DNA of 64,000 nucleotides from Candidatus Woesearchaeota archaeon. GTDB taxonomy: Archaea; Nanobdellota; Nanobdellia; Woesearchaeales; WJKL01. Positions 3,001-50,149 of this stretch are shown here, piece after piece; positions within the stretch are counted from its first letter, which is position 1, and each line of letters begins with the position of its first letter. The notes under the pieces were generated by a model. That model was given only the letters and a program-made list of their open reading frames with translations. It made no database searches and was not told the DNA's origin. The position numbers were made by a program, and so were the translations under genes. The stretch spans positions 67,443-131,442 of the forward strand of contig JAHWIR010000005.1 in the NCBI GenBank assembly GCA_019322435.1, written 5' to 3'.

Positions 3001-3654
3001 AGGCAATGCGTCAAGTGTTATTTCAGGGATAGTCAAGTCAACTGTTGTTGTGAATGTTTTTTCAGTTGTAAGGCCTGCTGAGTCTGTTGCTGCCAATCTT
3101 ATCTCATTTGGCTGGAATGCTGTTAATTCAACATTAAGGAAATTAAATTCTCTTCTTTCTTTTGGGTTGAATGTCCTTCTTAGTATGCCGTTGATATAAA
3201 GCTCTAGTCTTGTAAGAGGTTCTGTTGTTCCTACAATATCTATTCTTGGGCTGTTTATGTATTGCGGAATGTCAACATCAATATGAGGGGGGGTTGTGTC
3301 TCTCTGAGGTGTTTGGAAAGCGTACATTCCTCCATTGTTGTCATCTTCTTCTGTGTCTGTGCTTGACACTGATTTTACTTTGTAATAATAAGTAGTAGAT
3401 GGAGCAAGATTGCCTATGAAGATTGAATGATTAAATATCCTCTCAATATTTGTTTCTACATCAGAAGGGGCTGCTCTGTCTGTGCCGTAGAAGACTCTTG
3501 AGTCAGCAGGCTCGTCTGTCTGCCATGTGATGACTGCAAAGCTGTCTGTTATGTCTTCTGCTTTGATGCCTGATATTTGCAGAGCAGAGACTAGCGGCAT
3601 TGTTATCATTAGCTGAATCATCACTAATGCTATGATTGCTGTTATTTTTCTCAT
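1..3654 (-). CDS. Large secreted fibronectin type III (FN3)-domain surface protein with a Cys-rich C-terminal region. The C-terminus is cut by the window edge (>=1218 aa in window).
   Basis: Open frame on the minus strand from ATG at 3654 to position 1 with no stop; it is absent from the ORF track because it has no in-window stop. The N-terminus MRKITAIIALVMIQLMITMPLVSA is a Sec signal peptide. It is followed by an FN3-like segment (ITWQTDEPADSRVFYG...YYYKVKSVS), and the region toward position 1 is rich in Cys. The ATG overlaps the stop of the upstream gene (ATGA). Confidence 0.6.
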   Translation of the reverse strand, partial: MRKITAIIALVMIQLMITMPLVSALQISGIKAEDITDSFAVITWQTDEPADSRVFYGTDRAAPSDVETNIERIFNHSIFIGNLAPSTTYYYKVKSVSSTDTEEDDNNGGMYAFQTPQRDTTPPHIDVDIPQYINSPRIDIVGTTEPLTRLELYINGILRRTFNPKERREFNFLNVELTAFQPNEIRLAATDSAGLTTEKTFTTTVDLTIPEITLDALPSMTTDPSIVVSGTISETSFLEIYRNEELVSGGRIKDFEITINLVEGENTIRLKAIDQAGNVDEESASITLDTTAPELKNLKPADTTFFYEGATQVDISGNTEPFAKVEVYINKAPDGNPHLKGQASSTGRFEFDYVDLEGISFGPITIKGELNGEYIPVSPEELEEEVEILEEQEARTIKVTFVVTDQAGHTAQEEISYTIGTCYAGGANWDIANLIEHQSPSMLNPASLKQGTGIISAVFNLSYQGFGSNASIIDVEFVKACEADMMKKGKYEISCRILQDPPNVRISNDRKNMWYLVYNLNALSDYEEEFLEWPIKPGDIEDEILFPFKIKITYSHKIDDEQITEGQTTCRTLAFAIDTSRIDPRDVPLVDWLIEEGPEILNKTINRINENLDKINQAVRISAIACFAGFAVRIIARGIRTWKSWADYRLDKVMKDDDGTKCPPPGSGKANPKHKLTPDGKLTKGMTQDDLTNTELEERCKSAFKGWNYEASAYKFFRWSCDRFLCSSAPAAWTSGKSPEEVAVRIERSILCSKTEGTEGLILMRPSAEECKEKTASKKPLCWIYKGDYYTYKADAKGENVILKIDDDISPVSKKEIEVVGKGRTVQLSKEETVTCKKLCKGEGYEEKESGCKDSTTASKIIAGEKDPVTGLVKQPFSRVITTAKECLDRDEICLCTKKDPENTLANPPQDTLDLVEKTVSAGDLKDFWDYRYDKLGYSYNKYVYYEGRDQSACFGANSFISPGEAYLDPSNTVPAFQCLCTTQIRNRILLLRNILQGLYNCLEQIKATGEADAGVCKEFFTQYLCEWIAEILTSLIKGCTPWTGAKISNVTTDRIRAGAATIRDAVAGTTSDLLDQYPSSALEDFIGVGQGAIAKKICLGALTGDWGWDFDAFLDTAYSVPYKTSARAYPASRRYITWNPDTEIATYQYDVAWMLAPGCEIDSYSVELVCATNYDLSFPGARCEIEPQGNDMPIEKCDCYGADSRHDQSKAGPSKPI

Positions 3655-5552
3655 CTTATCAGTTCTGGAGTAGGCACTAATTTTGATTTTTTCTCAATAT
3701 TAGTTAGATATTGAAGCTGTTTTTCCTCATCTCTTGAGAATGGGAATTCAACAACATGGAATTTTATTTGTTTTGCTCTTCTTAAATCATTCCAGGCAGG
3801 TGTCCATTTTCCCATATATCCTCCGTATATTCCCCTGTCATCTGCCAAGTAAGCCTCAATCTCATATTCATAATCCCATTTTGCATGGAATTTTAGCTGG
3901 GATAGGATTTCTTCTTCTGAAGGATAGATTGCTGAGCTTTGCAGGCCTTTTCTTTTGATTGTTATTATGACTGACTGGTCATCATCCAGTGACTCTTCCT
4001 GCCTGACCAAATCTGAGTCAAGGAAGGCTTTGTGCTTTACAAAAGTGATATCTTTGAGTATTGTTGGAGTTAAGTAAATATCAACTGTCTTTTCTTTATC
4101 AGTTGTTGCAAAGACAAAGTTTTCTTCATAGCCTTGTTTTGTTCCTCTTACAACTCCGTTTACGCAGACTGGGAACAGCTCCTGGATAAATGCATCTTCA
4201 ATGCCGTGGAATTTTCTTTCAGTTACACCCATTGGGCAGTTGAATCTGATGCATGTAAAGGAGATATTAACACCTGGAAGCTCTTCATAGAAGTTAATGT
4301 CTGGTGTTGAAACGTTTTCCCATGACCTTACTTTTATAAGGGTTGTTGCTTCTTCTGCGCAGAACTCTTCTGAGGATGCTCTTTGCTGGAAGTCAAACTC
4401 TGTTATGCCAAAGCTTGTCTTATCCGGCTCATTGTGGTTGATGCTGACTTCGAATGCAAAGTTGAAGGTGTATTGGTTGTGGTTTCTGGCTGCATCGTCT
4501 GTTATTGTTACCATAACTGGATATTTTACATCATAGGTAAAGTGCCACATGTGTATGCAAAGGAAAGACATGAGGTCAGCGCTTCTTTGTGCATTTGATT
4601 TTAGGAATGTTCCTTGATTTGGCCTTATCTGCAGCTCAATAGGCCATGTTGGATCATAGTTGAGGTTGACATGCGTGTTTCTGTAGTTCAGGTCTGTTAC
4701 TGTCCAGATATAGTGGTTCTGGACATAAGGCCTTGTATCTGGAATATCTAAGTAATCTGTTTTTTCAATCCTTATTGAAGGAAGATTATAATGGAGCAGG
4801 TCTTTTATCCTTGCTTCTACATCATCAACATACCATATCTTTGGAGAGCAGGTGAATTCCATGTCTGTGTAAGGGACTCTTGGGTCTAAAGCAATAAGGT
4901 CTATTGTCCTTTCTTCCAAGAATTTATCATCTAGCTCCTGGAGCACTATCTCTTTTGCAAGCTCATATACTGTCTTTAATCTGACTGGAACATCTCCTAC
5001 AAACTGGTTTATCCTTGTTACCTTTTGTTCGGCTTTTGAAGTGAATTCCAATGGGTAATCAAGAGTGACTTTGACTGATTCGTCTGTCAGGTCAACGGTG
5101 ATAGCTCTTGGAGCCAGTTCCTGGATAGTGAACTGGTTTTGGAATGGTTCTAGGTTGCTGAGGCATTCATCAAGGTTTTGATCAATGTAATGGGCAAGGT
5201 CTTCCTTCATATAATCCTCAGAAGGATATCTTGTCTGGCCTCTGAAATGCCAGAGAGGGACCTTTATTGAAGGGAACAAGGGACTTCCTCCAAGATATGA
5301 CCTTTGGTCAGAACTTATTTCATCAGGGAACCTGATGAAGCCTCCATTAGCACCTAGAATATTAACTCCGTCTGTTGCTATATTATTAATGCAATCACTA
5401 ACAAAAGTATCAATTGGTTTCAGCTCGGGCGGGACAACGCGCTCTGGTGTAAATACTGTTGTTGCTTGTCTTAAATAAAGGAATAAACCTATTCCAAGAA
5501 GCAGAACTATACCTAAGATGATGAAAAGTGTTATCTGTCCTTTCTTTCTCAT
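3651..5552 (-). CDS. Surface protein with a prepilin-like (class III) signal-peptide N-terminus. Paralogue of 11511-13610.
   Basis: 633-aa ORF whose ATG (5552) overlaps the upstream stop in an ATGA. The N-terminus MRKKGQITLFIILGIVLLLGIGLFLYL has a [KR]G-Q cleavage-like motif followed by a hydrophobic helix. It shares the VxDCI....G..LG..GG[FY]I block with the 11511-13610 protein. Confidence 0.6.
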   Translation of the reverse strand: MRKKGQITLFIILGIVLLLGIGLFLYLRQATTVFTPERVVPPELKPIDTFVSDCINNIATDGVNILGANGGFIRFPDEISSDQRSYLGGSPLFPSIKVPLWHFRGQTRYPSEDYMKEDLAHYIDQNLDECLSNLEPFQNQFTIQELAPRAITVDLTDESVKVTLDYPLEFTSKAEQKVTRINQFVGDVPVRLKTVYELAKEIVLQELDDKFLEERTIDLIALDPRVPYTDMEFTCSPKIWYVDDVEARIKDLLHYNLPSIRIEKTDYLDIPDTRPYVQNHYIWTVTDLNYRNTHVNLNYDPTWPIELQIRPNQGTFLKSNAQRSADLMSFLCIHMWHFTYDVKYPVMVTITDDAARNHNQYTFNFAFEVSINHNEPDKTSFGITEFDFQQRASSEEFCAEEATTLIKVRSWENVSTPDINFYEELPGVNISFTCIRFNCPMGVTERKFHGIEDAFIQELFPVCVNGVVRGTKQGYEENFVFATTDKEKTVDIYLTPTILKDITFVKHKAFLDSDLVRQEESLDDDQSVIITIKRKGLQSSAIYPSEEEILSQLKFHAKWDYEYEIEAYLADDRGIYGGYMGKWTPAWNDLRRAKQIKFHVVEFPFSRDEEKQLQYLTNIEKKSKLVPTPELIR

Positions 5553-6295
5553 TTTATTTTTTCAACTTCTGATACAAAATATATCCTTGCCCATGCCATG
5601 TAAGCTGCATAGAGCAGGACAGAGATTATCAGTATCTGCGGTGCTAATGTGCTTAATAGTCTTATTATGTAGCCTGCTGCTAGTATCAGGATTCCTGGTA
5701 TTAACAGTTTTGGGATGTTTTTTGCTCCGAATTCCAAGGCATTTCCAATTGACTCAAAAACCTTGTTTGTTTTTGTTAGTTTTATGAAGATCAATGCTAT
5801 GAAATATATCAGTGCAGTTAATAATATTGTAGATGCGTACATCAATGCAATTATCTTTGTTTTTAATAATCCTGAGATGAAAAGCAAGATTGGGATTAAG
5901 ATGACTGCAAGAAACAGATTTAATCCAATAAGTTTTTTGAAGTATTTTTTTGTGAATTTCTTTTTCAGCAAAGTTGAATATATCATCCCTCTTGTGAAAG
6001 ACCAGGATAATAATAAGATTACTGCTAAAAGTATTCCAACTATTATTGTTGTGAACATTAATGTGTTTACATCTGCCATTAAGAGCTTTAGCTGGTCTGG
6101 TGTTATCTGAGCCATTGCTTCTTGGGTTAAGGACTCTGGACTGATCTTTGAGCCTTGTTTTGTGATTATTTTTCCTGCAAGATAGGTTGAAGGATAGACT
6201 ATTGCATAGAATAATAGGTCATAGAAGATTATCTGTATGAAATTGAACTTTAGCTTGAATGATTCTATAAATTGCTTTAGCTGTTTTTTAATCAT
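5549..6295 (-). CDS. Polytopic integral membrane protein, hypothetical.
   Basis: 248-aa ORF with 6-7 hydrophobic helices. It overlaps both neighbours by 4-8 bp and sits inside the surface-protein operon. Confidence 0.5.
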   Translation of the reverse strand: MIKKQLKQFIESFKLKFNFIQIIFYDLLFYAIVYPSTYLAGKIITKQGSKISPESLTQEAMAQITPDQLKLLMADVNTLMFTTIIVGILLAVILLLSWSFTRGMIYSTLLKKKFTKKYFKKLIGLNLFLAVILIPILLFISGLLKTKIIALMYASTILLTALIYFIALIFIKLTKTNKVFESIGNALEFGAKNIPKLLIPGILILAAGYIIRLLSTLAPQILIISVLLYAAYMAWARIYFVSEVEKIK

Positions 6296-8477
6296 ATTTT
6301 GGTATTGAAGTGCAAAAATATCTTTTGTTCTCTAATTCATTTTCAAACTCACTGAATGTTCCTCTTTGTATGAGATGTATGCATGCTTTGCTGAATTTTG
6401 TTTCATTGTAGATAAAGAGCATGCCAGGGCCTGCTGCTGACCATGATCCTCCTGGTTTTCTTGTTACATCCTCTTCTAGCAATTCAAGATAGGTTATTCC
6501 TTTTCTCAGCTCTATATTGAATACTGTGTCTTCTGCGCCTTCTTTGAAAGCAGGAGCTACATAAGCAGATACTTTATAGATATATTGTGTTGTGCCATCA
6601 GGCAGGATTACTTTTGAGCTTACTTTTGCCTCGATATGGGCTGCTGCTTTTTTCAATCCACCTGGTGTGTCTACAAACACTGTTCCTTTTGCATCTGGGT
6701 CCATGTCAAACCATCTTCCGCAGATCTCTGATTTCCAGTATTCTATATCCAGGCCAAGCTTTGCAAAGAACTTGTCCATATCTTCTCTCCATTTTGCCCA
6801 GTTCTCTGCTTTTGGCAGCAGGTTTGAGAAAGATCCTAGGTCGTATCTTCCTAATTGTGCCAGCTTTTGTCCTTCTGCTGACAGATAATTGATAATATCA
6901 AAGGTTAAACTTACTGTATATGCTGCATGATTCCTGTGTTGGCCTTGGTCTTTTAGTTTCTGTATAAGATCAGGATCTCCTCTAAACATAGGAGGATCTA
7001 ATGTTTTTCCGTTCTCATCTACAAAGACTACAGATGCTGACTTGTCTTTTTCTTTGATTACATACTCCCATGGTTCTCCTGAGTTCCGGTTTTTTAAATC
7101 TATATCATATGTATCAGGTTTTTGTTTTCCTGTTTCTTTGTCCACTTTATAGATTCTTTCAGCACTTATCGGTGTACCATCACTATCAAAGTTCATGATA
7201 TGATTAACTATTTGTCTTTCTAGTTTTGGATTTCCTTCTTTATCTTTTTCCTTTGTCTTTATATCCTGATATTCGATTGTTGTTGTGAACCAGTCTCCTT
7301 TGATAACTTCTTTATATGGTTCTCCTTTTTTGAAATCAGATTGTGTTATTCTTGCTTCTTCTTCTGCAACAATATCTTCAACAGTATCTTTGTATTGTTT
7401 TGCAATAACCATTCCATCTTTATCTTGAACTTCTAAAACACCTTCTTTTATGACTGGGTTTTTTACACCATCAATATTCTTTAGAGCATCTACTAAATCT
7501 TGATATCCTGCACGGGTTGTTGTATATTCCTTACGATCTGTATCTCTAATTAATACATTGTCTAATTTTTCTTTAGTAATTGGGTCAACTTGTATGAATA
7601 TGTCTGCATTTTTGTCAAATATTGCATCCCTTTTTGTCTGCTTTATATAAAGTTCAGGCGGATTCTTAACTAGTGCATTATTTTTGTAATAATAATAATC
7701 TCCTCCTCTCTCATAGACTGGCTTGCCAGTCCCGTCAACAAAGCTGGTAGGTTTATAGTTGGTTCCTGCAAGCCTTTTTGCATCGCTTACTTCAAGTTTA
7801 AAAATCTTTTTTCTTCCATCTAACACAGCATTTTCTCCAACAAGGGTTTCAACCCGTTTTCCATTTATTAACAGCCAGTATGCTTGACCTCCTGCCATTG
7901 GCCTTAATTCATATTTTTTAGGAGAGATTACTGCTACTTCTTTTGTTACTTCTTTAACAGAAACTAATTTGTAATCGGTTCCTTCTGCATCCTTTTTTAA
8001 TTGGGCTTCAAATTCTTCTTTTGAATCTTTAATGTTAGAATAAGTATCAGTAAATTTATCTTTTTCGTCTTTAACATTTTGATAAACTGCTTCGAATACA
8101 GTTGTTTTTTCTCTAGGCAGCTGTTTGGTTTCAATTCCAGTGTCAGTTACTAAAGTGTATTCCCCTTCTTTAGTTAGGATTCCTGCTGCTGTTTCTATTG
8201 AAGAATATTCTGTAATACCCCATGCAAGTGAATTTCTATTCCAAAAATATACCCTTTCTTTTTCTTTTTTAACATGGACAAGGCTTTCGTATTTATCATC
8301 AAGAGTAGGATCTTCTTTCTTGGTTGTGATAATATAACCTGTTGAACCTTCTGGTTTAACTTTTCCCTCAAGAACCAATTGTCTGAAAGCTGGATCTTTT
8401 TCGATTTGAGATAATATAGGAGGAATTACAACTAACAAAAACATCAACATTATTCCAATCAATATTTTCTTATTCAT
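6288..8477 (-). CDS. Large secreted protein, hypothetical.
   Basis: 729-aa ORF with N-terminal signal peptide MNKKILIGIMLMFLLVVIPPILSQ. It is K/E/T-rich and overlaps the downstream gene start by 8 bp. Confidence 0.55.
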   Translation of the reverse strand: MNKKILIGIMLMFLLVVIPPILSQIEKDPAFRQLVLEGKVKPEGSTGYIITTKKEDPTLDDKYESLVHVKKEKERVYFWNRNSLAWGITEYSSIETAAGILTKEGEYTLVTDTGIETKQLPREKTTVFEAVYQNVKDEKDKFTDTYSNIKDSKEEFEAQLKKDAEGTDYKLVSVKEVTKEVAVISPKKYELRPMAGGQAYWLLINGKRVETLVGENAVLDGRKKIFKLEVSDAKRLAGTNYKPTSFVDGTGKPVYERGGDYYYYKNNALVKNPPELYIKQTKRDAIFDKNADIFIQVDPITKEKLDNVLIRDTDRKEYTTTRAGYQDLVDALKNIDGVKNPVIKEGVLEVQDKDGMVIAKQYKDTVEDIVAEEEARITQSDFKKGEPYKEVIKGDWFTTTIEYQDIKTKEKDKEGNPKLERQIVNHIMNFDSDGTPISAERIYKVDKETGKQKPDTYDIDLKNRNSGEPWEYVIKEKDKSASVVFVDENGKTLDPPMFRGDPDLIQKLKDQGQHRNHAAYTVSLTFDIINYLSAEGQKLAQLGRYDLGSFSNLLPKAENWAKWREDMDKFFAKLGLDIEYWKSEICGRWFDMDPDAKGTVFVDTPGGLKKAAAHIEAKVSSKVILPDGTTQYIYKVSAYVAPAFKEGAEDTVFNIELRKGITYLELLEEDVTRKPGGSWSAAGPGMLFIYNETKFSKACIHLIQRGTFSEFENELENKRYFCTSIPKYD

Positions 8478-11400
8478 TTTAATAGCTTTTCTGCTGTTTT
8501 GCAGTAATCTTCTCCTGCTGTGTAGATATAGTTATCTGGCTCAAGGATTCCTACTACATCTTCGTATAGCTCAATTCCCATTATGAGTAACTCATATATT
8601 CTACATGCTGCGTTTCTTTTACGATTGGTTGCACAAAGATATAAACAAACAGCCTCTATACTGACTCCTATGACTGTCAATGGCTCTGATAGTGCTTGTT
8701 TTACTGAATTGATAATATTAGAGAATACGGCTGTTATTGGGCATGCATTAAACAATTCTCCTACAAGATATTTGCATATTTCATAGTGTTTTAATTCATC
8801 GCAGGCATGGGTTGAGACTCCTGTGTTGGCAGATCCTTTTAAGCAGATTATGTGCCTGCATCCTATCTGCCTGTATCTCTCAGCTGCAGCTAAGATTCCA
8901 GGGATGCAGAGTGTTGCAACAGCAACAAAAAGATTGTCTTTTGCATTCAGGTATTCATTTGGGTCTTTTGCTTTGTCTTTTGCTCCTCCAAACCATCTGT
9001 TTGCAATATCTCCACCGCATAAATTTAATATCCAATTTCCCGTTTCTTGCCATCCTCCAACAACACCCCAGGCTCCTTTTTCTTTTTCTGGGTCAGGGGA
9101 TAACCTGCAGTTCCAGAATTTGCAGAATTTTGTTACTTCTCCATACATGCCTTCCTTCGTTTCACCAACAAACTCCTCTGTCATGCATGCTGCTATAGAT
9201 ACTGCTTTTCCTGGTGCTCCTATGTCATCAACAGCTAATTTAACTGTACCTATTATTACTTCTAGATCCTGGAGAGCAAGTATCGCATCGCATATCTGCT
9301 CTGCCAAGCCCATATAATTTCTCCATTTGTCAATGTCTGCCCACCAAGAATCAATAAACTCATCTTTTGATTTTTTTATCTTCTCCTTGATTTCTGAACT
9401 TGCTTCTCCAAGGCGGTTTGAGTAGAGCGGGACAGCTATCTCTATAATTTCCTCTTCTATATAGGATAATTGGTTATTGTAAAGGGAAACAAGCTCGATT
9501 GTGCAGTTGAATTTCAATGGAGAATCTTTGATTGGATAGTCAGCATCGTCAAACTGGAATACAAGATAAGGATTGGTTGTTCCTCTTCCATTGTTGAATA
9601 TTCCTTCTCCCTCTACAAAAGTTTCGTAGTCGTCTCCTGTGCATTCCCTGATGCTGATGTCAACTATCTCTGCTTCTGAGTCAGTGCTTAAATCAACAAC
9701 TGCATAGACTCTTGGCTCAACTATCATAGCCAGCTGCGTGTCAATGCCTTTTGACGGCTGGATATTAACAGAATCAACTGTCCAGTAATCTGGATATTCA
9801 TCGTCTTCTAATGCAAATATTTCAATGGATTTATCTGCAGTGTCAAAGTTTCCAGCTGAATCAAGAATCTTGATATCCATTGTTGTGTTTACATAGCCTG
9901 ATTTAATAGAAGGGATATTCCAGTAGCATTGGAATTCATTTCCTGTTTTAGTGCACTCTGTTGCTGGAAGCTCATCTGCATCAATATGGTCATAGACTCC
10001 TGAGAAATTTCCTATAGCTCTTATTCCTGCTTCATCTGTTCCCTGTACAACAACAGCTAATGAATCATGGGAAACTGCAACGCCTTCTGGTCTTTGTGTT
10101 TCTTCAAATGCAACCCATTCAACAGAATCTATGATAGGATCTTGGGTGTCAACAATAATGTTTGCAGAGGTTGTTCCTGTTGCTATGTTTCCTGCATTAT
10201 CCCTGGCTGTTACAATAAATACACTAAGAGAGCTTCCATGGGATTTTGTGGTTGTTAGGTTATGCCATCTGCATGTCCATGTGCTTCCAGCCTGGTCGCA
10301 TCTGTCTGCTTTTACATCGTTTCCATAATCTGGATTTATCAAAGACAGGTAAAGGGATATCTGGCTGCTTGAGATTCCAGAGCCTGTTTCAGTAAGCTTA
10401 ACAATTATGTCAACTGGCTTGTCTCCGATATAGCTTTTGCCTTCAAAAGCATAATCTGTTCCAATAAAGGTTATCTCAGGAGCATCTGTATCAATGTTGA
10501 AGTCTCTTGTTACAAGTGCTGGAGCTGCTTGATTGCCGTATGCATCTGTTGCATGGAAGAAAAGATGAGCTGTTTTTCCAGCAGATATGTCAACATTTAC
10601 ATCGCTCCATGTGCAGGTTATATAGAATCCATCTTCAATGCAGTCAGTGGTTGTTATATCTGAGCCTGCTCCTATATCTGACAGATCAGCTCTTGCTTCA
10701 AGATTCTGAACAGTATCGTCTTCTATCTTTATCTTGATGACTGCCTTAAAAGGCTCGCCTGGAGCTGAGTTTCCAATAGGGATTCCATCTTTAAGAAGCT
10801 CAAAGGAATTTGGAAGTATTATTGGAGGATTGTTGTCATGGATAAAGCCTGTTATTGTCTCTGATGCAACAAAACCCATCCTGTCATATGCTTTTATCAG
10901 TATTGTATCTGAGTAAGAAAGTGAGACAATTGTTGTATTGGAAAAAATGCATTGTTCTGGAGAGTCAATAATTATTTCATGCAGTAATCTAGAGCCGTCC
11001 AGGAATTCTATTCTTGATATTCCAGAGCATCTTGTAAATTCATTTTCATTTGCCCTGTCTGTTACTTTAAGAGGGATTATAACTTCCTGCAGGTCCTGGA
11101 CAACATCTCCTGTCAGTGTTATTTCAGGAGCAAGGTTGTCAATTGTCATGTCTTTTTCAACTGTCTTTAACACAACTCCTGTATCTGAATGAAGTGTGAA
11201 TGTTGCTGGATATGTGCTAATAGGCAGTGTATAATATTCTCCTGTATAAGTGCATGTGAAGAGATTGCCTGCTGTTCTTGTGCATTCCTGGAATGGAAAT
11301 TCTTTATTTATCTTTACTTGGTTAGGTGTTATTTCAGAATCACCATCAACTTCTGCATTTGCTACAAGAAACCATCTGTCATATTCTTCAAAATAGCCGT

Positions 11401-11518
11401 TCACATCCTTGTCTCCGCTGTATTTGGTCATCTCAAAGGTTGTTGCTGCATAAGCTATAGGGAGAGATAGGATTAGCAAAATCATTACAATGGCTTGTGT
11501 TATTATTGTCTTATTCAT
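8474..11518 (-). CDS. Large secreted protein with a Cys-rich C-terminal domain, hypothetical.
   Basis: The ORF track starts at a TTG (11530). An in-frame ATG at 11518 (MNKTIITQAIVMILLILSLPIAYA, a signal peptide) is the more likely start and overlaps the upstream stop. The C-terminal ~300 aa carry >20 Cys. Confidence 0.55.
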   Translation of the reverse strand: MNKTIITQAIVMILLILSLPIAYAATTFEMTKYSGDKDVNGYFEEYDRWFLVANAEVDGDSEITPNQVKINKEFPFQECTRTAGNLFTCTYTGEYYTLPISTYPATFTLHSDTGVVLKTVEKDMTIDNLAPEITLTGDVVQDLQEVIIPLKVTDRANENEFTRCSGISRIEFLDGSRLLHEIIIDSPEQCIFSNTTIVSLSYSDTILIKAYDRMGFVASETITGFIHDNNPPIILPNSFELLKDGIPIGNSAPGEPFKAVIKIKIEDDTVQNLEARADLSDIGAGSDITTTDCIEDGFYITCTWSDVNVDISAGKTAHLFFHATDAYGNQAAPALVTRDFNIDTDAPEITFIGTDYAFEGKSYIGDKPVDIIVKLTETGSGISSSQISLYLSLINPDYGNDVKADRCDQAGSTWTCRWHNLTTTKSHGSSLSVFIVTARDNAGNIATGTTSANIIVDTQDPIIDSVEWVAFEETQRPEGVAVSHDSLAVVVQGTDEAGIRAIGNFSGVYDHIDADELPATECTKTGNEFQCYWNIPSIKSGYVNTTMDIKILDSAGNFDTADKSIEIFALEDDEYPDYWTVDSVNIQPSKGIDTQLAMIVEPRVYAVVDLSTDSEAEIVDISIRECTGDDYETFVEGEGIFNNGRGTTNPYLVFQFDDADYPIKDSPLKFNCTIELVSLYNNQLSYIEEEIIEIAVPLYSNRLGEASSEIKEKIKKSKDEFIDSWWADIDKWRNYMGLAEQICDAILALQDLEVIIGTVKLAVDDIGAPGKAVSIAACMTEEFVGETKEGMYGEVTKFCKFWNCRLSPDPEKEKGAWGVVGGWQETGNWILNLCGGDIANRWFGGAKDKAKDPNEYLNAKDNLFVAVATLCIPGILAAAERYRQIGCRHIICLKGSANTGVSTHACDELKHYEICKYLVGELFNACPITAVFSNIINSVKQALSEPLTVIGVSIEAVCLYLCATNRKRNAACRIYELLIMGIELYEDVVGILEPDNYIYTAGEDYCKTAEKLLK

Positions 11519-13610
11519 ATTCTGGCTCAATATGTTTTCTGAATTTTGCTGAAAGTTTTTCTATGTTAGGCACAGCTTCTTCTACTTTTCTTGGAAGGTT
11601 AGGGCTTATCACATAGAATATGATTTCCTTGCTTTCATAGAGGTCTTTAGGAGTTACTTCAAGAGGTCCTGTCTTTTCATTTAAGATTGCTCCTCCTGAA
11701 GGATATTCATCGAATACAACTTTTGGAATAGTGTACTCTTTCTTTGCGCCTAATTGCCGTGAAATCCAATCTGCTCCTGTGCTTCTTTTGTCTTTAGGAA
11801 TCACAACTTTTTGCTTGAGTATTACATTGCCAGTTAGTTCATAGGTTCCTGGAACTATTCTTTGCAGTACAGAAGGCTCTGTTTGGTTTCCCTTGAACTG
11901 CACTGCTGAGACTAACTCTGGATCTCCTGGTGTGCTTGGGATTCTTTCAAAGCCCAAGATGGCTATTTCTTTCTCTCTAAGAGGTATTGGCTGATCACTT
12001 AGTTTATTGCTCCTGATTGTGTATGGAAGGCTTTTTACTGTTATGTTTATATTAGCATAAGGATATGCTTGTGTTACAACAAATTCATTTCTGCCTATTC
12101 TTGTTGTTAGTGGTTTTGCAGGGATAAAATAATCATTATGTATAAAGGAAACAACACCCCCTAAACAGCCAGGAAGTTTTGTGGTTAATTCTCCGTTTTC
12201 ATCTGTCATTCCTGTGAAACAGCTCTCTTCTCCGCAAGTATATGTAACCTGGACTTTTGATATTCCTTTTGCAGGATCTAATGCATCTTCTATTTTGATG
12301 CTTATATCTCCGCTGTTTCTCAAGTCAAAATCACAGAACTGTGTTCCTGTAGGAACAAAGGATGTTTCATAGCCAGGGAAGTCTGCCACAATAGGCTGGT
12401 TGTTTCTTACATTGCCTTCCAATGCAAACTTAAAAGAATAGCCTCTTCTGTCAAATGCATAGGGGTCTGATATGTCAACAACAGTAGGGAAGGATATATC
12501 ATAGCTAAAGGAATACCTCTGGACCCCCACTAATGTAAGCAAGGGGTTGTTCATCTTTTCTGGCTCGCATATGTCGCCTTTGCAGTCAAGGTCAAAGTAG
12601 ATTGGCCACCATCCAAGATAGTCAAAGGTTGTTCCGAAATCATTGTATTTTTTATCATAGTTTAGAGGGACGTCCATTGCATAGAAAGCTGTTTTTACAT
12701 CATCTCCTGCAATGATTCTTGGGTCATGGTTTAGTGTGAAGGGGATTTGCAAGGCTCCTGTATAAGTCATCAAAAGGGACTGCACATCTTGTTTTACTAT
12801 TGTCTTTGACCAGATTGTGCCTCCTGCAAAATTAAATTCCATATCTGTCTTTGGAGGCAGAGCATCTGAGTCAGTAGAGGCAAATGCTGAGATAACATTT
12901 AGGATCTGGTTCTCAAGGAAATTGTATTCTACTTGTGTGTTTGTTATTTCTGTGGCAAAGTTGTAGATTCTTTTGAATTCAACTGGAAGGGATACATAGA
13001 AATCCTCAATCCTGTGGGAAATGTCTCCTCTTTTTATTTCAACAGGATAATTGACAAAGATGCTGATATCAAAATCTTCGATTCTGACTGTAGCTGATGC
13101 AGGGCTTTCTTGTATTTCAAAGCCCTGCTCTATAAATGATTCATAGTTCAAGCAGGAGATTAGTTTTTTATTGATATAATCCTTTGCCTGGGATTCAATC
13201 ATGGTTAAAGAAGGTCTCATGGAGCTGAAAGAGCAGTCTCCTGTGCATTTGTTTGGAGACTTAAGAAAATGCCAGTAAGGGATTGCCATATCTGAGCCTA
13301 GAGAGAATTTAAGGCCTTCTGCTTCTGTTGGATTGATAGAGCTTGTTACAATGCCGTAATCAGATGGGTTTATGTATCCGCCGCGGTCACCTATCTTTCT
13401 GAAGGCATCTTCTGATATTGCATAGATGCAGTCTTCAATAAAAAGCCTTACAGGCCTTACTTCAGAAGGTATCTCTGTTATTGCTGGAATTGCTTCTGGC
13501 TCTAGCTCTTTTTCAACTACAATTGAACGGATGTATAAGAAAGATGCGAATAACAACAGAATTACTATCCCTAGTATTATATATAGAGTTATCTGCCCTC
13601 TTTTTTCCAC
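11511..13610 (-). CDS. Surface protein with a prepilin-like (class III) N-terminus. Paralogue of 3651-5552, first gene of the operon.
   Basis: The ORF-track start (13625) is a TTG. A GTG at 13610, preceded by GAGGGGA 6-7 nt upstream, gives the N-terminus M-EKRGQITLYIILGIVILLL, which parallels MRKKGQITLFIILGIV of the paralogue. A TATA box (TTTATAAAGGG on the minus strand) lies about 40 bp upstream. Confidence 0.55.
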   Translation of the reverse strand: MEKRGQITLYIILGIVILLLFASFLYIRSIVVEKELEPEAIPAITEIPSEVRPVRLFIEDCIYAISEDAFRKIGDRGGYINPSDYGIVTSSINPTEAEGLKFSLGSDMAIPYWHFLKSPNKCTGDCSFSSMRPSLTMIESQAKDYINKKLISCLNYESFIEQGFEIQESPASATVRIEDFDISIFVNYPVEIKRGDISHRIEDFYVSLPVEFKRIYNFATEITNTQVEYNFLENQILNVISAFASTDSDALPPKTDMEFNFAGGTIWSKTIVKQDVQSLLMTYTGALQIPFTLNHDPRIIAGDDVKTAFYAMDVPLNYDKKYNDFGTTFDYLGWWPIYFDLDCKGDICEPEKMNNPLLTLVGVQRYSFSYDISFPTVVDISDPYAFDRRGYSFKFALEGNVRNNQPIVADFPGYETSFVPTGTQFCDFDLRNSGDISIKIEDALDPAKGISKVQVTYTCGEESCFTGMTDENGELTTKLPGCLGGVVSFIHNDYFIPAKPLTTRIGRNEFVVTQAYPYANINITVKSLPYTIRSNKLSDQPIPLREKEIAILGFERIPSTPGDPELVSAVQFKGNQTEPSVLQRIVPGTYELTGNVILKQKVVIPKDKRSTGADWISRQLGAKKEYTIPKVVFDEYPSGGAILNEKTGPLEVTPKDLYESKEIIFYVISPNLPRKVEEAVPNIEKLSAKFRKHIEPEYE

Positions 13611-13706
13611 TATTGTTCCCCTCAAGGTAAAAATATCTATTTACCCTTTATAAACTTTGCGATAAATTGAGATGGAAATTATGATACTCATATCATTTTG
13701 GGTAAA

Positions 13707-18222: not shown

Positions 18223-18314
18223 AGTTAGAAAAATTAGATTGTTATTTATTAAGGTTACGTTTTTGAAAATTAAAAACGAAGTTAAAAAAGCTTCGCGTTT
18301 TTTAACTTGTGGTT

Positions 18315-22400: not shown

Positions 22401-22487
22401 AAATCTGAAGGATTTTTAGGGTTCCAAACGGCTTTGCCGGTTAAGAATAAAAAAATATTTAAAAGAAAAGAAAAACTTTAGATTAAA

Positions 22488-23108: not shown

Positions 23109-24374
23109 TTGCTAGAATATATTAATAGGAAGTATAGGCCAAAACCTAATGATTTGGTTGCAGAGTATAGAGTTGAGCCAAACAAGATTTCTATTGAAAA
23201 GGCTTGCGAGCATATTGCTGGAGAATCATCAATAGGGACGTGGACAACTATTGCAACTATGAATAAGCAGATTGCAACTAAGTTAAAGCCAAATGTTTAT
23301 TCTATCAATAGGCAGACAAAAGAGGTTAAGATTGCTTATCCTGCTCAGCTGTTTGAAGCTGGGAATATGCCTCAGATTTATTCTGCTGTTGCCGGGAATA
23401 TATTTGGGATGAAGGCTGTCAAAGGATTGAGGCTGCAGGATATTTCATTTCCTAAAGTAATCATGGACAAATTCTCAGGGCCTAAGTTTGGGATACAAGG
23501 AGTTAGAAGGGTGTTGAAGGTTCCAAAAAGGCCTTTGGTTGGAACTATTGTAAAGCCTAAAGTCGGGTTGACTCATAAACAGCATGCTAAAGTTGCTTAT
23601 GAATCCTGGTTAGGCGGCCTGGATATTGTGAAAGATGATGAAAATTTAAGTTCAATGAGTTTTAATAATTTTGAGAAGAGAGTAAAAGATACTTTAAAAT
23701 TAAGAGATAAAGCTGAATTAGAGACAGGAGAGATGAAGATGTATATGGCAAATGTCACTGCTGAGACTTCAGAGATGTTAAGACGGGCTAAATTTGTTAA
23801 GGCTAATGGCGGAGAATATGTCATGATTGATATTATTACAGCTGGATGGAGTGCTGTGCAGACTTTAAGAGAGGCAAATTTAGGGTTAGTTATTCATGCG
23901 CACAGAGCAATGCATGGAGCTTTTACTGAGAATCCTAAGCATGGAATCTCTATGCTGACAATTGCAAAGACAGCAAGATTGATTGGAGTTGACCAGATCC
24001 ATGTTGGAGCTATTGTAGGGAAGATGAAAGGCGGGGAAGAAGAAGTTGTTACAATTGGGGAAAATATTGAAGAAAAGATTATCAATCCTGATGCAGAGGA
24101 TCATGTTCTAGCGCAGAAATGGTATAATATCAAGCCGATTTTCGCTGTTTGTTCTGGCGGGCTGGAGCCAAGCAAGATACCAGAATTAATAGATGCAATG
24201 GGAAATGATATAATAATGCAGTTTGGCGGAGGCTGTCATGGACATCCTGATGGAACTTTTGCAGGAGCAAAGGCTATAAGGCAGGCATTGGATGCTGCAA
24301 TGAAGAAAATACCTCTTTCTGATTATGCTGAATATCACAGAGAATTGGCTCGAGCTTTAGAGAAGTGGAAATAA
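23109..24374 (+). CDS. rbcL: Ribulose-1,5-bisphosphate carboxylase/oxygenase large subunit, form III (archaeal type).
   Basis: Nearly collinear with Thermococcus-type RbcL. The carbamylated-Lys motif GGLDIVKDDENLSSMSF, IHAHRAMHGAF and FGGGCHGHPDG are all present. TTG start with AAGAGG 8 nt upstream. Confidence 0.9.
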   Translation: MLEYINRKYRPKPNDLVAEYRVEPNKISIEKACEHIAGESSIGTWTTIATMNKQIATKLKPNVYSINRQTKEVKIAYPAQLFEAGNMPQIYSAVAGNIFGMKAVKGLRLQDISFPKVIMDKFSGPKFGIQGVRRVLKVPKRPLVGTIVKPKVGLTHKQHAKVAYESWLGGLDIVKDDENLSSMSFNNFEKRVKDTLKLRDKAELETGEMKMYMANVTAETSEMLRRAKFVKANGGEYVMIDIITAGWSAVQTLREANLGLVIHAHRAMHGAFTENPKHGISMLTIAKTARLIGVDQIHVGAIVGKMKGGEEEVVTIGENIEEKIINPDAEDHVLAQKWYNIKPIFAVCSGGLEPSKIPELIDAMGNDIIMQFGGGCHGHPDGTFAGAKAIRQALDAAMKKIPLSDYAEYHRELARALEKWK

Positions 24375-26180: not shown

Positions 26181-26750
26181 ATGGTGTATAAGTTAAATCT
26201 TAAGATAATGATTATTCTGCTTTTTATCATTATTTCTATTAATGGATGTAGGCAAGAAATTTCTCCAGAGCTTAAAGAAGCAATAGAATATTGCAAGGAT
26301 TTTCCTATAACTGGTCATACTAGAACAAAGAATTCCTGTTATGCAAGATTTGCAATTGACAAACTTAATTCGAATGTATGCAGTCTCATTGATGAAGATT
26401 CAGAGGAATTTAGAAATGGGTGTTATCAATTTTTAGCAAATGAATTAAATGATAGTTCTATATGTAATAATATTGAAAATAGCGACTTCGGCAAATTTTC
26501 TTGTATTGCTATTATTGAACAAAATTCGGCTCCTTGCAATAAGATTAAAAATGAGCAGAAAAAAGGGGATTGTCTTTATATCATTGCTAAAAATAATAAA
26601 GATCCCTCTCTATGTAAAGAGATTAAAAATGATGAGTCAAGATATTTTTGTTATCAAATATTGGCCTCTGCAAAAAATGATTCATCATTATGTTACAATA
26701 TAGAGGATGATATTCAAAGGAGTTCTTGCTTAAATAACTTAAAGACTTAA
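26181..26750 (+). CDS. Secreted or lipoprotein-like paired-Cys repeat protein, hypothetical.
   Basis: N-terminus ...IISINGC looks lipobox-like. About 7 repeats of S.C..I......[FS]CY...A end in SCLNNL. Same repeat type as 13824-14657. Confidence 0.5.
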   Translation: MVYKLNLKIMIILLFIIISINGCRQEISPELKEAIEYCKDFPITGHTRTKNSCYARFAIDKLNSNVCSLIDEDSEEFRNGCYQFLANELNDSSICNNIENSDFGKFSCIAIIEQNSAPCNKIKNEQKKGDCLYIIAKNNKDPSLCKEIKNDESRYFCYQILASAKNDSSLCYNIEDDIQRSSCLNNLKT

Positions 26751-26780: not shown

Positions 26781-26850
26781 TCAAAAGGTTTATACAAAGT
26801 GCTTCTTTGTGAACCACAAGCATAAACCTTTTTTCAAAAGGTTTATATAA
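26781..26850 (+). promoter_or_regulatory. About 70-bp palindromic double BRE/TATA module (copy 1) upstream of the giant adhesin gene.
   Basis: TCAAAAGGTTTATACA, about 22 nt containing a small hairpin, then AGCATAAACCTTTTTTCAAAAGGTTTATA. Near-identical module at 49472-49540. Confidence 0.55.
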
Positions 26851-26884
26851 ATCAGACGCCTATATAGACGTAGAAGGGGAGTAT

Positions 26885-34280: not shown

Positions 34281-34324
34281 GTTTGGGAATCCCAAACAAC
34301 ACTCAAAGAGCTTTGCTCTTTGAG
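34281..34324 (-). terminator. Two adjacent hairpins between 34339 and the NTase gene.
   Basis: CTCAAAGAG-CTTTG-CTCTTTGAG (9-bp stem) and GTTTGGG-AAT-CCCAAAC (7-bp stem). Confidence 0.35.
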
Positions 34325-49416: not shown

Positions 49417-49471
49417 CTAATTCCCTCTTTTTTAATAAATTGTCTTGCTATATTTAAATATATTTCGTTTA

Positions 49472-49540
49472 TCAAAAGGTTTATACAATAATCGGCAAAG
49501 CCGCTTAAGCATAAACCTTTTTTCAAAAGGTTTATAAATA
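49472..49540 (+). promoter_or_regulatory. About 70-bp palindromic double BRE/TATA module (copy 2) upstream of rps6e.
   Basis: Same outer 16-mer and inner 30-mer as 26781-26850. The central hairpin differs but is still self-complementary (CGGCAAAGCCG). Confidence 0.55.
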
Positions 49541-49615
49541 AAGTTAAGTTTTTGATGTATATTCTTAGCTGAGCCGTAGTTACTGAATACGCGCTCGGAA
49601 TGGAGGACGTTTACA

Positions 49616-50149
49616 ATGGCAGAATTTAAATTGACAATAGCTGACCCTAAAACAGGAAAATGTGTTCAAAAGACTGTTGGAGGAGATGCTGCAAAGGGTT
49701 TTATTGGATTAAAGATAGGTGATACTGTAAAAGGAGAAGTCATGGACCTGACTGGTTATGAGTTTATACTAACTGGTGGAAGTGACTACTGCGGATTTCC
49801 AATGAGAAAAGGGATTTCAGGAGCAAGGAAAAGAGTGCTGGTCTTGAAAGGTGTTGGATTTCGCGGTGGGAAGAAAGGTATCAAGAGAAGGAAGACAGTG
49901 TGTGGAGAAGCAATAAATGAAAATATTGTTCAGATAAATCTTAAGATTGCAAAGAAAGGAAAAGCTGATCTAACTGCTGAAGCTCCTAAAGAGGAGAAGA
50001 AGGAAGAAGCAAAAGAGGCTCCGAAAGAAGAGAAAAAAGAAAAAGCAAAGGCAGAAGAAAAGCCTAAGGAAGAAGCTCCGAAAGAAGCTCCTAAGGAAAA
50101 AGCAAAGGCAGAGGAGAAGCCAAAAGAAGAAGCTAAAAAAGAAGGTTAG
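49616..50149 (+). CDS. rps6e: Ribosomal protein S6e with a K/E/A/P-rich C-terminal extension.
   Basis: N-terminus MAEFKLTIADPKTGKCVQKTV...GGSDYCGFPMRKG is S6e-typical. GGAGGA ribosome-binding site. Confidence 0.85.
   Translation: MAEFKLTIADPKTGKCVQKTVGGDAAKGFIGLKIGDTVKGEVMDLTGYEFILTGGSDYCGFPMRKGISGARKRVLVLKGVGFRGGKKGIKRRKTVCGEAINENIVQINLKIAKKGKADLTAEAPKEEKKEEAKEAPKEEKKEKAKAEEKPKEEAPKEAPKEKAKAEEKPKEEAKKEG

What the first reader, a model, noticed from the sequence alone, without database searches (positions are those of the whole stretch)
26781..26850. About 70-bp palindromic double-promoter module duplicated at two distant loci
The module reads TCAAAAGGTTTATACA - N22 - AGCATAAACCTTTTTTCAAAAGGTTTATA. 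It contains two forward BRE/TATA boxes 51-53 bp apart. Between them is the exact inverse of the box (ATAAACCTTT), so AAAGGTTTAT...ATAAACCTTT forms a 10-bp outer stem followed by a T6 tract. The module occurs upstream of the giant adhesin gene and again, with only the central about 22 nt changed, upstream of rps6e at 49472-49540. The changed central part is itself self-complementary in both copies: ACAAAG-N5-CTTTGT in copy 1 and CGGC-AAA-GCCG in copy 2. That means structure has been conserved while sequence has diverged. The module could be a bidirectional promoter, a terminator-plus-promoter insulator, or an operator for a dimeric regulator. The window encodes several candidates: TrmB, double Lrp and wHTH.
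Basis: seen in the sequence. Interest (0 to 1): 0.6.

Follow-up and report, generated by a model that had tools for sequence, protein, structure and literature searches.

The report
Duplicated palindromic triple-promoter-box cassette
Two unrelated genes of an uncultured DPANN archaeon (Woesearchaeota) carry the same ~67-bp upstream cassette, built from three copies of the genome's ordinary promoter box (forward, inverted, forward); it is real and was added recently in this lineage, but it looks like a copied promoter-derived repeat rather than a special regulatory switch.

Summary
Copy 1 (26781-26847) and copy 2 (49472-49536) share an identical left block of 17 nt and an identical right block of 30 nt. 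These flank an unrelated centre of 20 or 18 nt. The repeated 11-mer AAAGGTTTATA is this genome's generic BRE/TATA box: it is enriched 5-fold, and in about 10 genes it sits exactly 23-25 nt before a leaderless start codon. The flanks around the boxes are also identical, which the consensus cannot explain.

Three related Woesearchaeota lineages keep the same gene order at rps6e but have only one box. The downstream box (F2) is its positional ortholog. So about 51 bp (F1 + centre + inverted box R + T6) is a lineage-specific addition.

The self-complementarity of the centre is real but only weakly significant (p about 0.03-0.1). No evidence links the module to TrmB, Lrp or wHTH proteins.

Best reading (confidence 0.42): a promoter-derived palindromic repeat was copied between promoters. 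F2 is the working promoter, and the hairpin plus T6 acts as an upstream stop or insulator. In other DPANN genomes the same inverted-box/box palindrome abuts tRNA 3' ends.

Copy number in the rest of the genome could not be tested. Interest is modest.

The parts
26781..26847 (+). Module copy 1 (67 bp), upstream of the 1949-aa surface-protein gene (ATG at 26885).
   Evidence: reproduced in Logan contig L135
26784..26794 (+). F1a: forward BRE/TATA box AAAGGTTTATA. The predicted start site is 26818-26820, which is the first bases of the conserved right block.
   Evidence: spacing rule: box end + 24-26
26798..26817 (.). Variable centre of copy 1 (AGTGCTTCTTTGTGAACCAC, 45% GC). It can form two alternative small hairpins: ACAAAG/CTTTGT or TTGTG/CACAA.
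26821..26831 (-). Ra: inverted box (AAAGGTTTATG on the minus strand). It pairs with F1a (outer stem) or with F2a (11-bp stem, loop TTC).
26829..26834 (+). T6 tract, an oligo-T termination signal on the + strand directly after the F1:R hairpin.
   Evidence: oligo-T is enriched after stop codons (23/59 genes vs 18% background)
26837..26847 (+). F2a: forward box and likely working promoter of the surface-protein gene. It lies 37 nt before the ATG; predicted start site 26871-26873; SD GAAGGGGAG.
49472..49536 (+). Module copy 2 (65 bp), in the divergent spacer between the 483-aa gene (minus strand) and rps6e (ATG at 49616).
49475..49485 (+). F1b: forward box. Its upstream flank (TATTTAAATATATTTCGYTTA) is orthologous to that of relatives.
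49489..49506 (.). Variable centre of copy 2 (TAATCGGCAAAGCCGCTT, 50% GC) with hairpin CGGC-AAA-GCCG. A 16/18 inverted match lies at 22426-22443.
49510..49520 (-). Rb: inverted box.
49518..49523 (+). T6 tract of copy 2.
49526..49536 (+). F2b: forward box and positional ortholog of the single rps6e promoter box of relatives. It lies 22 nt from the conserved leader, against 21 nt in relatives.
49441..49466 (-). Own promoter of the divergent 483-aa gene (symmetric TATA, TATTTAAATA). It is conserved in relatives and lies outside the module.
22426..22443 (-). Intergenic hairpin TAACCGGCAAAGCCGTTT, resembling the centre of copy 2. It is not flanked by boxes.

Best explanation
The cassette is three copies of this Woesearchaeota genome's own core-promoter box (BRE+TATA, AAAGGTTTATA), arranged forward (F1), inverted (R), forward (F2).

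Shown:
- F2 is the resident promoter of the downstream gene.
- The ~51-53 bp to its left (F1, a GC-richer centre, R and a T6 run) is a lineage-specific addition.
- That addition has the same non-box flanks at two unrelated genes. It was therefore copied from one promoter to the other, or from a third copy, and did not arise twice.

Inferred, spread: copying was homology-guided repair or recombination that used the promoter box itself as the short homology. This gives box-insert-box, and the 14-nt TCAAAAGGTTTATA does bound a 39/37-nt insert. The hairpin tip was later remodelled, which explains identical arms with different centres.

Inferred, effect: the F1:R hairpin followed by T6 is a stop or insulator placed immediately upstream of F2. 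The complement of the box supplies the oligo-T, as in other DPANN genomes.

Inferred, F1 and R: they can probably bind TBP/TFB but are poor or abortive promoters. They face each other across a shared, unusually GC-rich and structured spacer. A transcript from F1 would also meet T6 only 11-17 nt after its predicted start.

Overall, this is a promoter-derived palindromic intergenic repeat with at most a modest insulating role. It is not a dedicated operator or switch.
For: - Box is the generic promoter. There are 17 matches with <=1 mismatch, against 3.1 expected. In about 10 genes the start codon lies exactly 23-25 nt after the box, i.e. leaderless.
- Common origin of the two copies. The 17 + 30 flanking nt are identical, including about 14 positions outside the boxes. 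Ordinary promoters share only 9.4 of 30 nt.
- Lineage-specific. Relatives with eIF2-gamma 87%, 82% and 78% identical keep the 483-aa(-)/rps6e(+) synteny but have one box. F2b matches that box in spacing to the conserved leader and in downstream sequence.
- A syntenic RuBisCO-X-surface-protein locus in another relative (L133) also has a single promoter.
- No forward-inverted-forward triple was found in about 90 kb of relatives.
- Hairpin. F1:R folds at -13.7 and -15.2 kcal/mol, z = -3.3 and -5.7. R:F2 folds at -8.9 kcal/mol, z = -5.6.
- Oligo-T is the local terminator signal.
- The R-F palindrome abuts tRNA 3' ends in four other DPANN loci.
- The centre is 45-50% GC, against a mean of 25% in ordinary TATA-to-start spacers. 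Most ordinary spacers fold at 0.0 kcal/mol.
- No transposase, integrase or Cas1 was found among the 49 window proteins scanned.
Against: - Only 64 kb of this genome could be read, so copy number is unknown.
- Simple copying predicts identical centres, but the centres are unrelated. The 'loop remodelling' step is an assumption.
- At copy 1 the upstream gene already has its own T6, 12 nt after its stop. At copy 2 there is no upstream + strand gene. The need for an insulator is therefore not obvious.
- The stem is AT-rich, and the terminator scan did not call it.
- No transcript data exist.
- Perfect conservation of 47 nt could reflect selection rather than youth.
Confidence: 0.42

Rival explanations
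1. It is a genuine miniature mobile element. One form is a hairpin element whose terminal inverted repeats mimic the promoter box (REP- or MITE-like). The other is a 37-39-bp insert that targets the promoter box and duplicates 14 bp of it (TCAAAAGGTTTATA). In either form it would belong to a family whose members share ends but differ in the centre.
For: - Identity boundaries are sharp at both ends, and there is no similarity outside them.
- Box-insert-box looks like a target-site duplication. At rps6e the outer flank of each box is orthologous to the relatives' single-box locus.
- Arms are 12/13 complementary.
- Identical ends with different centres are easier to explain with several family members.
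- A centre-like hairpin recurs at 22426-22443.
- A different DPANN-like metagenome contig (L122) has an analogous R-F-hairpin-R-F array upstream of aIF5A.
Against: - Only two copies are seen.
- The element is far smaller than known MITEs, and there is no duplication outside it.
- No transposase, RAYT or integrase was found among the 49 window proteins scanned.
- There were no relevant hits in the viral collection: two scans found nothing and the third found one unrelated hairpin.
- The insert has no terminal inverted repeats of its own.
- The relatives' sampled loci have none.
Confidence: 0.2
2. It is a working multi-promoter device. In one version, F1 and F2 are tandem promoters that raise expression of two highly expressed genes. 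The F1 transcript would start at the conserved AAGCAUAAACC... and carry a 5'-terminal hairpin (R:F2, 11 bp) that stabilises or regulates the mRNA. In the other version, R fires divergently (a bidirectional promoter).
For: - All three boxes match the consensus (F1 and F2 exactly, R with one mismatch).
- The predicted F1 start falls within 2 nt of the start of the conserved right block in both copies (spacing rule).
- The variable centre coincides with the normally unconstrained TATA-to-start spacer.
- The R:F2 hairpin folds at -8.9 kcal/mol, z = -5.6.
- Multiple promoters per gene are known in archaea: 131 promoters for 107 genes in M. jannaschii (PMC2699501 abstract, seen).
- Bidirectional archaeal transcription is known (PMC6640164).
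- At copy 2, R points towards the divergent 483-aa gene.
Against: - T6 lies 11-17 nt after the F1 start.
- The spacer is GC-rich and structured, unlike the working promoters of the window.
- F1 and R are convergent and would occlude each other.
- The 483-aa gene has its own conserved promoter, and copy 1 has no divergent gene.
- Relatives express the same genes from one box.
Confidence: 0.15
3. It is an operator. The inverted arms are half-sites for a dimeric regulator encoded nearby (TrmB, double-Lrp or wHTH) that co-regulates the surface protein and rps6e.
For: - The arms are inverted repeats.
- Regulators are encoded in the window.
- Archaeal repressors commonly overlap BRE/TATA (own knowledge).
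Against: - The arms are exactly the generic promoter box used by many unrelated genes, so they carry no regulator-specific information.
- The half-sites are about 37 bp apart centre to centre.
- The TrmB-type motif TATCAC-N5-GTGATA (from memory) is absent on reading the sequence.
- The module is absent in relatives that keep the genes.
- Co-regulating an adhesin with a ribosomal protein has no obvious logic.
Confidence: 0.05
4. It is nothing special: a chance resemblance of two consensus promoters, an assembly artefact, or attL/attR sites of a 22.6-kb integrated element.
For: - The box is generic.
- The two copies are direct repeats 22.7 kb apart.
Against: - The 30-mer has zero expectation, and identity extends outside the boxes.
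- An independent assembly reproduces copy 1.
- The interval between the copies is syntenic with relatives at both ends (L133 for the left part, L128/L129/L131 for the right) and holds no integrase.
Confidence: 0.02

Closest known systems
Putative mobile promoters / promoter reuse in prokaryotes (Matus-Garcia, Nijveen & van Passel 2012; PMC3575422)
   Same: Highly similar non-coding sequence lies upstream of unrelated, non-paralogous genes in one genome. The mechanism of spread is unknown, and it is not associated with a recognisable IS.
   Different: - This module is shorter and only 79% identical overall (55/70). That is just under their criterion of >=80% over >=50 nt.
- It is archaeal, and built from three copies of the core promoter box with an inverted middle copy.
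Promoter-carrying intergenic repeats of halovirus HF2 (class I 58 bp, class II 29 bp; PMC8707807)
   Same: Short repeated intergenic units (29-58 bp) in an archaeal system that contain AT-rich promoter motifs. In HF2 they were shown experimentally to drive transcription.
   Different: - Those repeats are viral, conserved in position across a virus genus, and not described as forward-inverted-forward palindromes.
- Here the repeat is chromosomal and absent from relatives.
Bidirectional archaeal promoters (BRE-TATA-BRE sharing one symmetric TATA box, start sites about 50 bp apart; Pyrococcus furiosus, PMC6640164)
   Same: Symmetry of archaeal promoter elements gives promoter potential on both strands.
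   Different: Here two complete boxes lie back to back (R and F2, with BREs 3 nt apart), and a third box faces R. This is not one shared TATA.
Small palindromic promoter-bearing repeats of bacteria (Correia elements, REP/REPIN, ERIC; cited in PMC3575422)
   Same: Intergenic palindromic repeats with conserved arms that can carry promoter or terminator activity.
   Different: - Those are bacterial, high in copy number, with defined transposase dependence or duplicated targets.
- None of these features could be shown here.
Triplication with an inverted middle copy from two template switches (DUP-TRP/INV-DUP type; own knowledge, not checked in the library)
   Same: A direct-inverted-direct arrangement of one unit.
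   Different: - The scale here is 11-14 bp units.
- The shared non-local flanks (CAA..., ...AAGC) show that at least one locus received the module ready-made.

Membership tests
Archaeal core promoter (BRE + TATA box) | Matches the genome's own over-represented upstream motif. | tested here: met
   F1 and F2 match AAAGGTTTATA exactly; R has 1 mismatch. The motif is enriched 17 vs 3.1.
Archaeal core promoter (BRE + TATA box) | Fixed distance to a transcription start or to a leaderless start codon. | tested here: inconclusive
   Generic boxes lie 23-25 nt before the ATG. F2 lies 37 and 79 nt before the ATG, consistent with a leader carrying an SD, and F2b is the positional ortholog. F1 and R have no gene at a promoter distance.
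Archaeal core promoter (BRE + TATA box) | A mapped transcription start site. | not testable with these tools
   No transcript data are available for this MAG.
Bidirectional promoter with one shared TATA box (P. furiosus type) | A single symmetric TATA flanked by a BRE on each side. | tested here: not met
   R and F2 each have their own TATA, and the BREs are adjacent (definition from PMC6640164).
Intrinsic-terminator-like element | A stem-loop immediately followed by an oligo-T run. | tested here: met
   The F1:R stem (11 bp plus an inner stem) is followed by T6; z = -3.3 and -5.7.
Intrinsic-terminator-like element | A G+C-rich stem. | tested here: not met
   The outer stem is AT-rich, and the scan did not call it at either locus.
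Intrinsic-terminator-like element | Lies downstream of a co-directional gene. | tested here: inconclusive
   True at copy 1 (gene 26181-26750, which already has its own T6). False at copy 2, where the neighbouring gene is divergent.
MITE / IS-derived element | Terminal inverted repeats. | tested here: met
   AAAAGGTTTATAC vs AAAAGGTTTATGC, 12/13.
MITE / IS-derived element | Target-site duplication flanking the element. | tested here: inconclusive
   There is no duplication outside the 67-bp unit. Read instead as box-insert-box, a 14-nt direct repeat bounds a 39/37-nt insert.
MITE / IS-derived element | Many copies and a cognate transposase in the genome. | tested here: inconclusive
   There are 2 copies and no transposase in the 64-kb window. 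The rest of the genome could not be reached.
Putative mobile promoter (Matus-Garcia criteria) | >=80% identity over >=50 nt upstream of non-paralogous genes. | tested here: not met
   55/70 = 79%. The genes are non-paralogous. It misses the numerical cut-off narrowly.
Operator of a TrmB/Lrp-type regulator | A palindrome specific to a regulon and distinct from the basal promoter elements. | tested here: not met
   The arms equal the generic box used by many genes.
Operator of a TrmB/Lrp-type regulator | Binding by the regulator. | not testable with these tools
   This needs EMSA or footprinting.
att sites of an integrated element | Direct repeats that flank a non-syntenic island carrying an integrase. 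| tested here: not met
   The interval is syntenic with relatives and has no integrase.
Known RNA family (Rfam 15) | A covariance-model hit. | tested here: not met
   There were no hits at gathering score in the window. Around both copies only chance-level hits appeared, E 0.36-0.52.

The most novel reading that the evidence does not exclude
The two copies are members of a so-far undescribed family of miniature cassettes in DPANN archaea. These cassettes would home into consensus promoter boxes, duplicating about 14 bp of the box around a 37-39-bp insert. They would have conserved ends and a hypervariable hairpin centre. Each insertion would install a hairpin/oligo-T stop plus an extra promoter box upstream of the resident promoter. 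This would be a selfish or domesticated 'promoter-targeting' element without a nearby transposase.
Probability: 0.12. Interest if true: 0.65.

Novelty: new variant of a known kind. Interest (0 to 1): 0.3.

Why it matters
Almost nothing is known experimentally about promoters, terminators or small repeats in DPANN archaea. This window gives three things.

- A clean, testable promoter grammar: the box AAAGGTTTATA, with starts 24-26 nt after it, and many leaderless genes.
- A dated example of promoter-region remodelling. About 51 bp built from the promoter box itself was added upstream of rps6e after the split from sequenced relatives, and the same unit sits at an unrelated surface-protein gene.
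- A possible general principle. If more copies exist, this would be an archaeal case of promoter-derived DNA spreading between genes. It would also suggest that in these AT-rich, compact genomes the reverse complement of the promoter box doubles as the oligo-T terminator.

If only two copies exist, it is a minor evolutionary curiosity.

Tried and rejected
It still showed the palindrome is common in DPANN MAGs.
2. A metagenome scan for the forward-inverted-forward pattern gave 7 loci. Only L122 is architecturally similar; the others are coding repeats or chance.
3. Three viral-collection scans found nothing relevant. The one hit (L134) is an unrelated hairpin.
4. I could not reach the rest of the genome.
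   - Exact-protein look-ups returned only short Logan contigs of run SRR14699983 or nothing.
   - A DNA-ligase search from a relative did not find this MAG's ligase. The hits belong to other MAGs or samples.
5. Surface-protein homologues (P0122, P0123) gave no orthologous upstream spacer carrying a module. L133 is syntenic and has a single promoter.
6. Rfam gave no family, and there are no tRNAs in the window.
7. The att-site / genomic-island idea is rejected by synteny and by the lack of an integrase.
8. CRISPR-like, integron attC, replication-origin ORB and C/D-box sRNA readings were considered and dropped on reading the sequence. The repeats are too short, the R''/R' consensus is absent, and there are no C/D boxes inside the module. 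These consensus motifs are from memory.
9. I looked for the copy-1 centre elsewhere in the window and found none. The copy-2 centre has one inverted near-match.
10. The sigma-70/terminator scan is not informative for an archaeon, and it did not call the module.

Full report
**Observation**

- Copy 1 spans 26781-26847 and copy 2 spans 49472-49536.
- They share an identical left block (TCAAAAGGTTTATACAA, 17 nt) and an identical right block (AAGCATAAACCTTTTTTCAAAAGGTTTATA, 30 nt).
- The centre is 20 nt in copy 1 and 18 nt in copy 2, with no convincing similarity. Overall identity is 55 of 70 aligned columns.
- The 30-mer has zero expectation in shuffles. It is the only long exact non-coding repeat in the window.
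- A forward-inverted-forward arrangement of any 9-mer occurs only at these two sites in the window. It occurs nowhere in about 90 kb from relatives.
- Copy 1 is reproduced exactly in an independent Logan assembly of run SRR14699983. Both flanks of copy 2 are supported by synteny.

**Organism**

- The window's eIF2-gamma and its 1949-aa protein are identical to NCBI proteins MBW2996011.1 and MBW2995988.1 (locus tag KY332_01675). Both belong to a Candidatus Woesearchaeota MAG and sit on a 139,878-bp contig.
- The window is 36% G+C.
- Many of its proteins have no Pfam family.

**What the box is**

- AAAGGTTTATA occurs 17 times with at most one mismatch, against 3.1 expected.
- In about ten genes a start codon follows the box by exactly 23-25 nt. 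This is the signature of an archaeal BRE/TATA box driving leaderless mRNAs, with the start 24-26 nt after the box.
- A second class has 36-41 nt and a Shine-Dalgarno sequence. The surface-protein gene (37 nt) and the 483-aa gene belong to it.
- The flanks are not generic. Aligned on the box, ordinary promoters share 9.4 +/- 2.8 of the 30 upstream nt. The two F2 boxes share 21, of which 19 are contiguous. About 14 identical positions lie outside the three boxes.

**Age**

- Relatives whose eIF2-gamma is 87% (L128/L129), 82% (L130) and 78% (L131) identical keep the divergent 483-aa(-)/rps6e(+) arrangement. Each has a single box.
- The sequence downstream of the window's F2b aligns with theirs. 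It lies 22 nt from the conserved leader ATTCTTAGCTGAGCCG..., against 21 nt in relatives.
- The sequence upstream of F1b (TATTTAAATATATTTCGYTTA, the promoter of the 483-aa gene) also aligns.
- The window therefore has box-insert-box where relatives have box, a net gain of about 51 bp.
- A relative with the syntenic RuBisCO-X-surface-protein locus (L133) likewise has one promoter.
- The module is a derived feature of this lineage, not a conserved device.

**Structure**

- F1 and R form an 11-bp outer stem extended by a small inner stem: -13.7 and -15.2 kcal/mol, z = -3.3 and -5.7. T6 follows directly.
- R can instead pair with F2: 11 bp, loop TTC, -8.9 kcal/mol, z = -5.6.
- The centre hairpins alone are weak. 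Shuffle p is 0.10-0.12 for copy 1 and 0.03-0.045 for copy 2, combined about 0.03. They also sit at different offsets. 'Compensatory conservation' is therefore not established.
- The centres are nevertheless unlike ordinary TATA-to-start spacers of this genome.
  - They are 45-50% G+C, against a mean of 25%.
  - They fold at -4.3 and -5.0 kcal/mol, where most ordinary spacers fold at 0.0.
- The copy-2 centre has a 16/18 inverted match in another intergenic spacer (22426-22443). The 11-mer CGGCAAAGCCG occurs twice, against 0.08 expected.

**Geometry and function**

- By the spacing rule, F1 would start transcription at 26818-26820 and 49509-49511. That is within 2 nt of the first base of the conserved right block.
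- Such an RNA would meet T6 after 11-17 nt.
- R would start on the other strand at about 26795-26797, next to F1. F1 and R are therefore convergent promoters sharing one spacer and would occlude each other.
- Oligo-T is the likely terminator here: T5+ lies within 60 nt of 23 of 59 stop codons, against 18% background.
- In other DPANN MAGs the palindrome TAAACCTTTT..AAAAGGTTTA is frequent. In four loci it begins 1-2 nt after a tRNA 3' end. This fits a dual use: the complement of the box gives the T-run, and the box gives the next promoter.
- That supports a terminator-plus-promoter reading for R-T6-F2.
- No classical role fits both copies, however.
  - At copy 1 the upstream gene already has its own T6.
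  - At copy 2 there is no upstream + strand gene.
  - Only copy 2 has a divergent gene, and that gene has its own conserved promoter.

**Origin**

- The non-local flanks (CAA after F1, AAGC before R, TTTTTC before F2) are identical at both loci. Independent local template-switch events are therefore excluded, and at least one locus received the unit ready-made.
- No transposase, integrase or Cas1 is present among the 49 window proteins scanned.
- There is no duplication outside the unit.
- There was no relevant viral match.
- I favour homology-guided copying that uses the box as the short homology, followed by remodelling of the hairpin tip. This is inference.
- A real miniature mobile family with variable centres remains possible. 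The analogous R-F-hairpin-R-F array upstream of aIF5A in an unrelated metagenome contig (L122) gives it some support. There the 17-nt inverted unit and the box are each repeated exactly, and the centre hairpin is significant at p = 0.001.

**Comparison with known systems**

The closest concepts are:
- putative mobile promoters / promoter reuse (PMC3575422);
- promoter-carrying intergenic repeats of halovirus HF2 (PMC8707807);
- archaeal bidirectional promoters (PMC6640164);
- bacterial palindromic repeats such as Correia and REPIN elements.

The module fails the strict numerical criterion for mobile promoters (79% vs 80%). It is not the shared-TATA type of bidirectional promoter. It meets only part of the definitions of a terminator or a MITE. 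No Rfam family matches. The att-site idea is rejected by synteny.

**Verdict**

- This is a real, young, promoter-derived palindromic repeat at two promoters of a Woesearchaeota MAG.
- Its likely role is modest: an upstream stop or insulator plus redundant TBP/TFB sites.
- The operator hypothesis is unsupported.
- The key unknown is copy number in the rest of the genome, which these tools could not reach.

Noticed in passing
window 49555-49608: The rps6e 5' leader (TTAGCTGAGCCGTAGTTACTGAATACGCGCTCGGAATGGAGG) is conserved in four Woesearchaeota lineages. It forms a hairpin CUGAGCCGUA/UACG-GCUCGG with one compensatory and two one-sided changes, and it ends at the Shine-Dalgarno sequence. There is no Rfam match. 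It is a candidate ribosomal-protein autoregulatory leader.
   Followed up: partly
window 26856-26871: A 16-bp near-palindrome, ACGCCTATATAGACGT, lies between the surface-protein promoter box F2a and its predicted start site. This is the classical position of an archaeal repressor operator. It occurs only once in the window.
   Followed up: partly
window 22426-22443: An intergenic hairpin (minus strand TAACCGGCAAAGCCGTTT) matches the centre of module copy 2 at 16/18 positions. It lies between a T5 run and the next promoter and is not flanked by boxes.
   Followed up: partly
window-wide, e.g. boxes at 16878(-), 20021(-), 21850(-), 41574(-), 59853(+), 62817(+): About ten genes have their start codon exactly 23-25 nt after the box AAAGGTTTATA, so leaderless mRNAs are common. 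A second class has 36-41 nt plus an SD sequence.
   Followed up: yes
window 1-13625, minus strand: There is a run of very large consecutive orphan genes of 633, 248, 729, 1018 and 704 aa, none with a Pfam family. A further ORF of >1000 aa runs off the left end.
   Followed up: no
window 57979-58773 (-): A 264-aa protein has a clear GGDEF diguanylate-cyclase domain (E = 9e-31). To my knowledge this is unusual for an archaeon.
   Followed up: no
window 23109-24374 (+); L133 314-1594: A RuBisCO large-subunit gene lies two or three genes upstream of the giant surface protein. This order is conserved in a relative.
   Followed up: no
window 49977-50138: rpS6e carries a C-terminal extension of about 50 aa, rich in Lys, Glu, Ala and Pro and built from imperfect tandem repeats. 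The protein is 177 aa, against a 125-position Pfam S6e model.
   Followed up: no
window 34302-34324 and 18279-18308: Two strong intergenic hairpins lie just after stop codons: CTCAAAGAGC-TTT-GCTCTTTGAG and AAGTTAAAAAA-GCTTCGCG-TTTTTTAACTT. The second looks like a bidirectional terminator.
   Followed up: no
L005 275-299, L048 2964-2985, L067 6398-6420, L082 1418-1443: In other DPANN MAGs the palindrome TAAACCTTTT-loop-AAAAGGTTTA starts 1-2 nt after a tRNA 3' end.
   Followed up: partly
L014, L028, L108, L084, L030, L019 (flank of the palindrome): The box is followed 8-10 nt later by a hairpin with a covarying stem and an A-rich loop (e.g. GTACGGC-ATAAA-GCCGTAC, GTGCGAG-ATAAA-CTCGCAC). Across all 241 flanks of the scanned loci, 23 fold with shuffle p<0.01, against about 2.4 expected.
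   Followed up: partly
L076 about 842-890: The palindrome directly follows what looks like the 5' part of a tRNA (GGGCCCGTAACTCAGTCTGG). This may be a split or interrupted tRNA gene in an Aenigmatarchaeota MAG.
   Followed up: no
many Clostridia/Eubacteriales MAG loci, e.g. L016, L021, L036, L047: A recurrent bacterial repeat, TTTTGGATTCTTAAACCTTTTT..AAAAAGGTTTAAGAATCCAAAAA, has an adjacent GC-rich hairpin. It is an unrelated repeat family picked up by the pattern scan.
   Followed up: no
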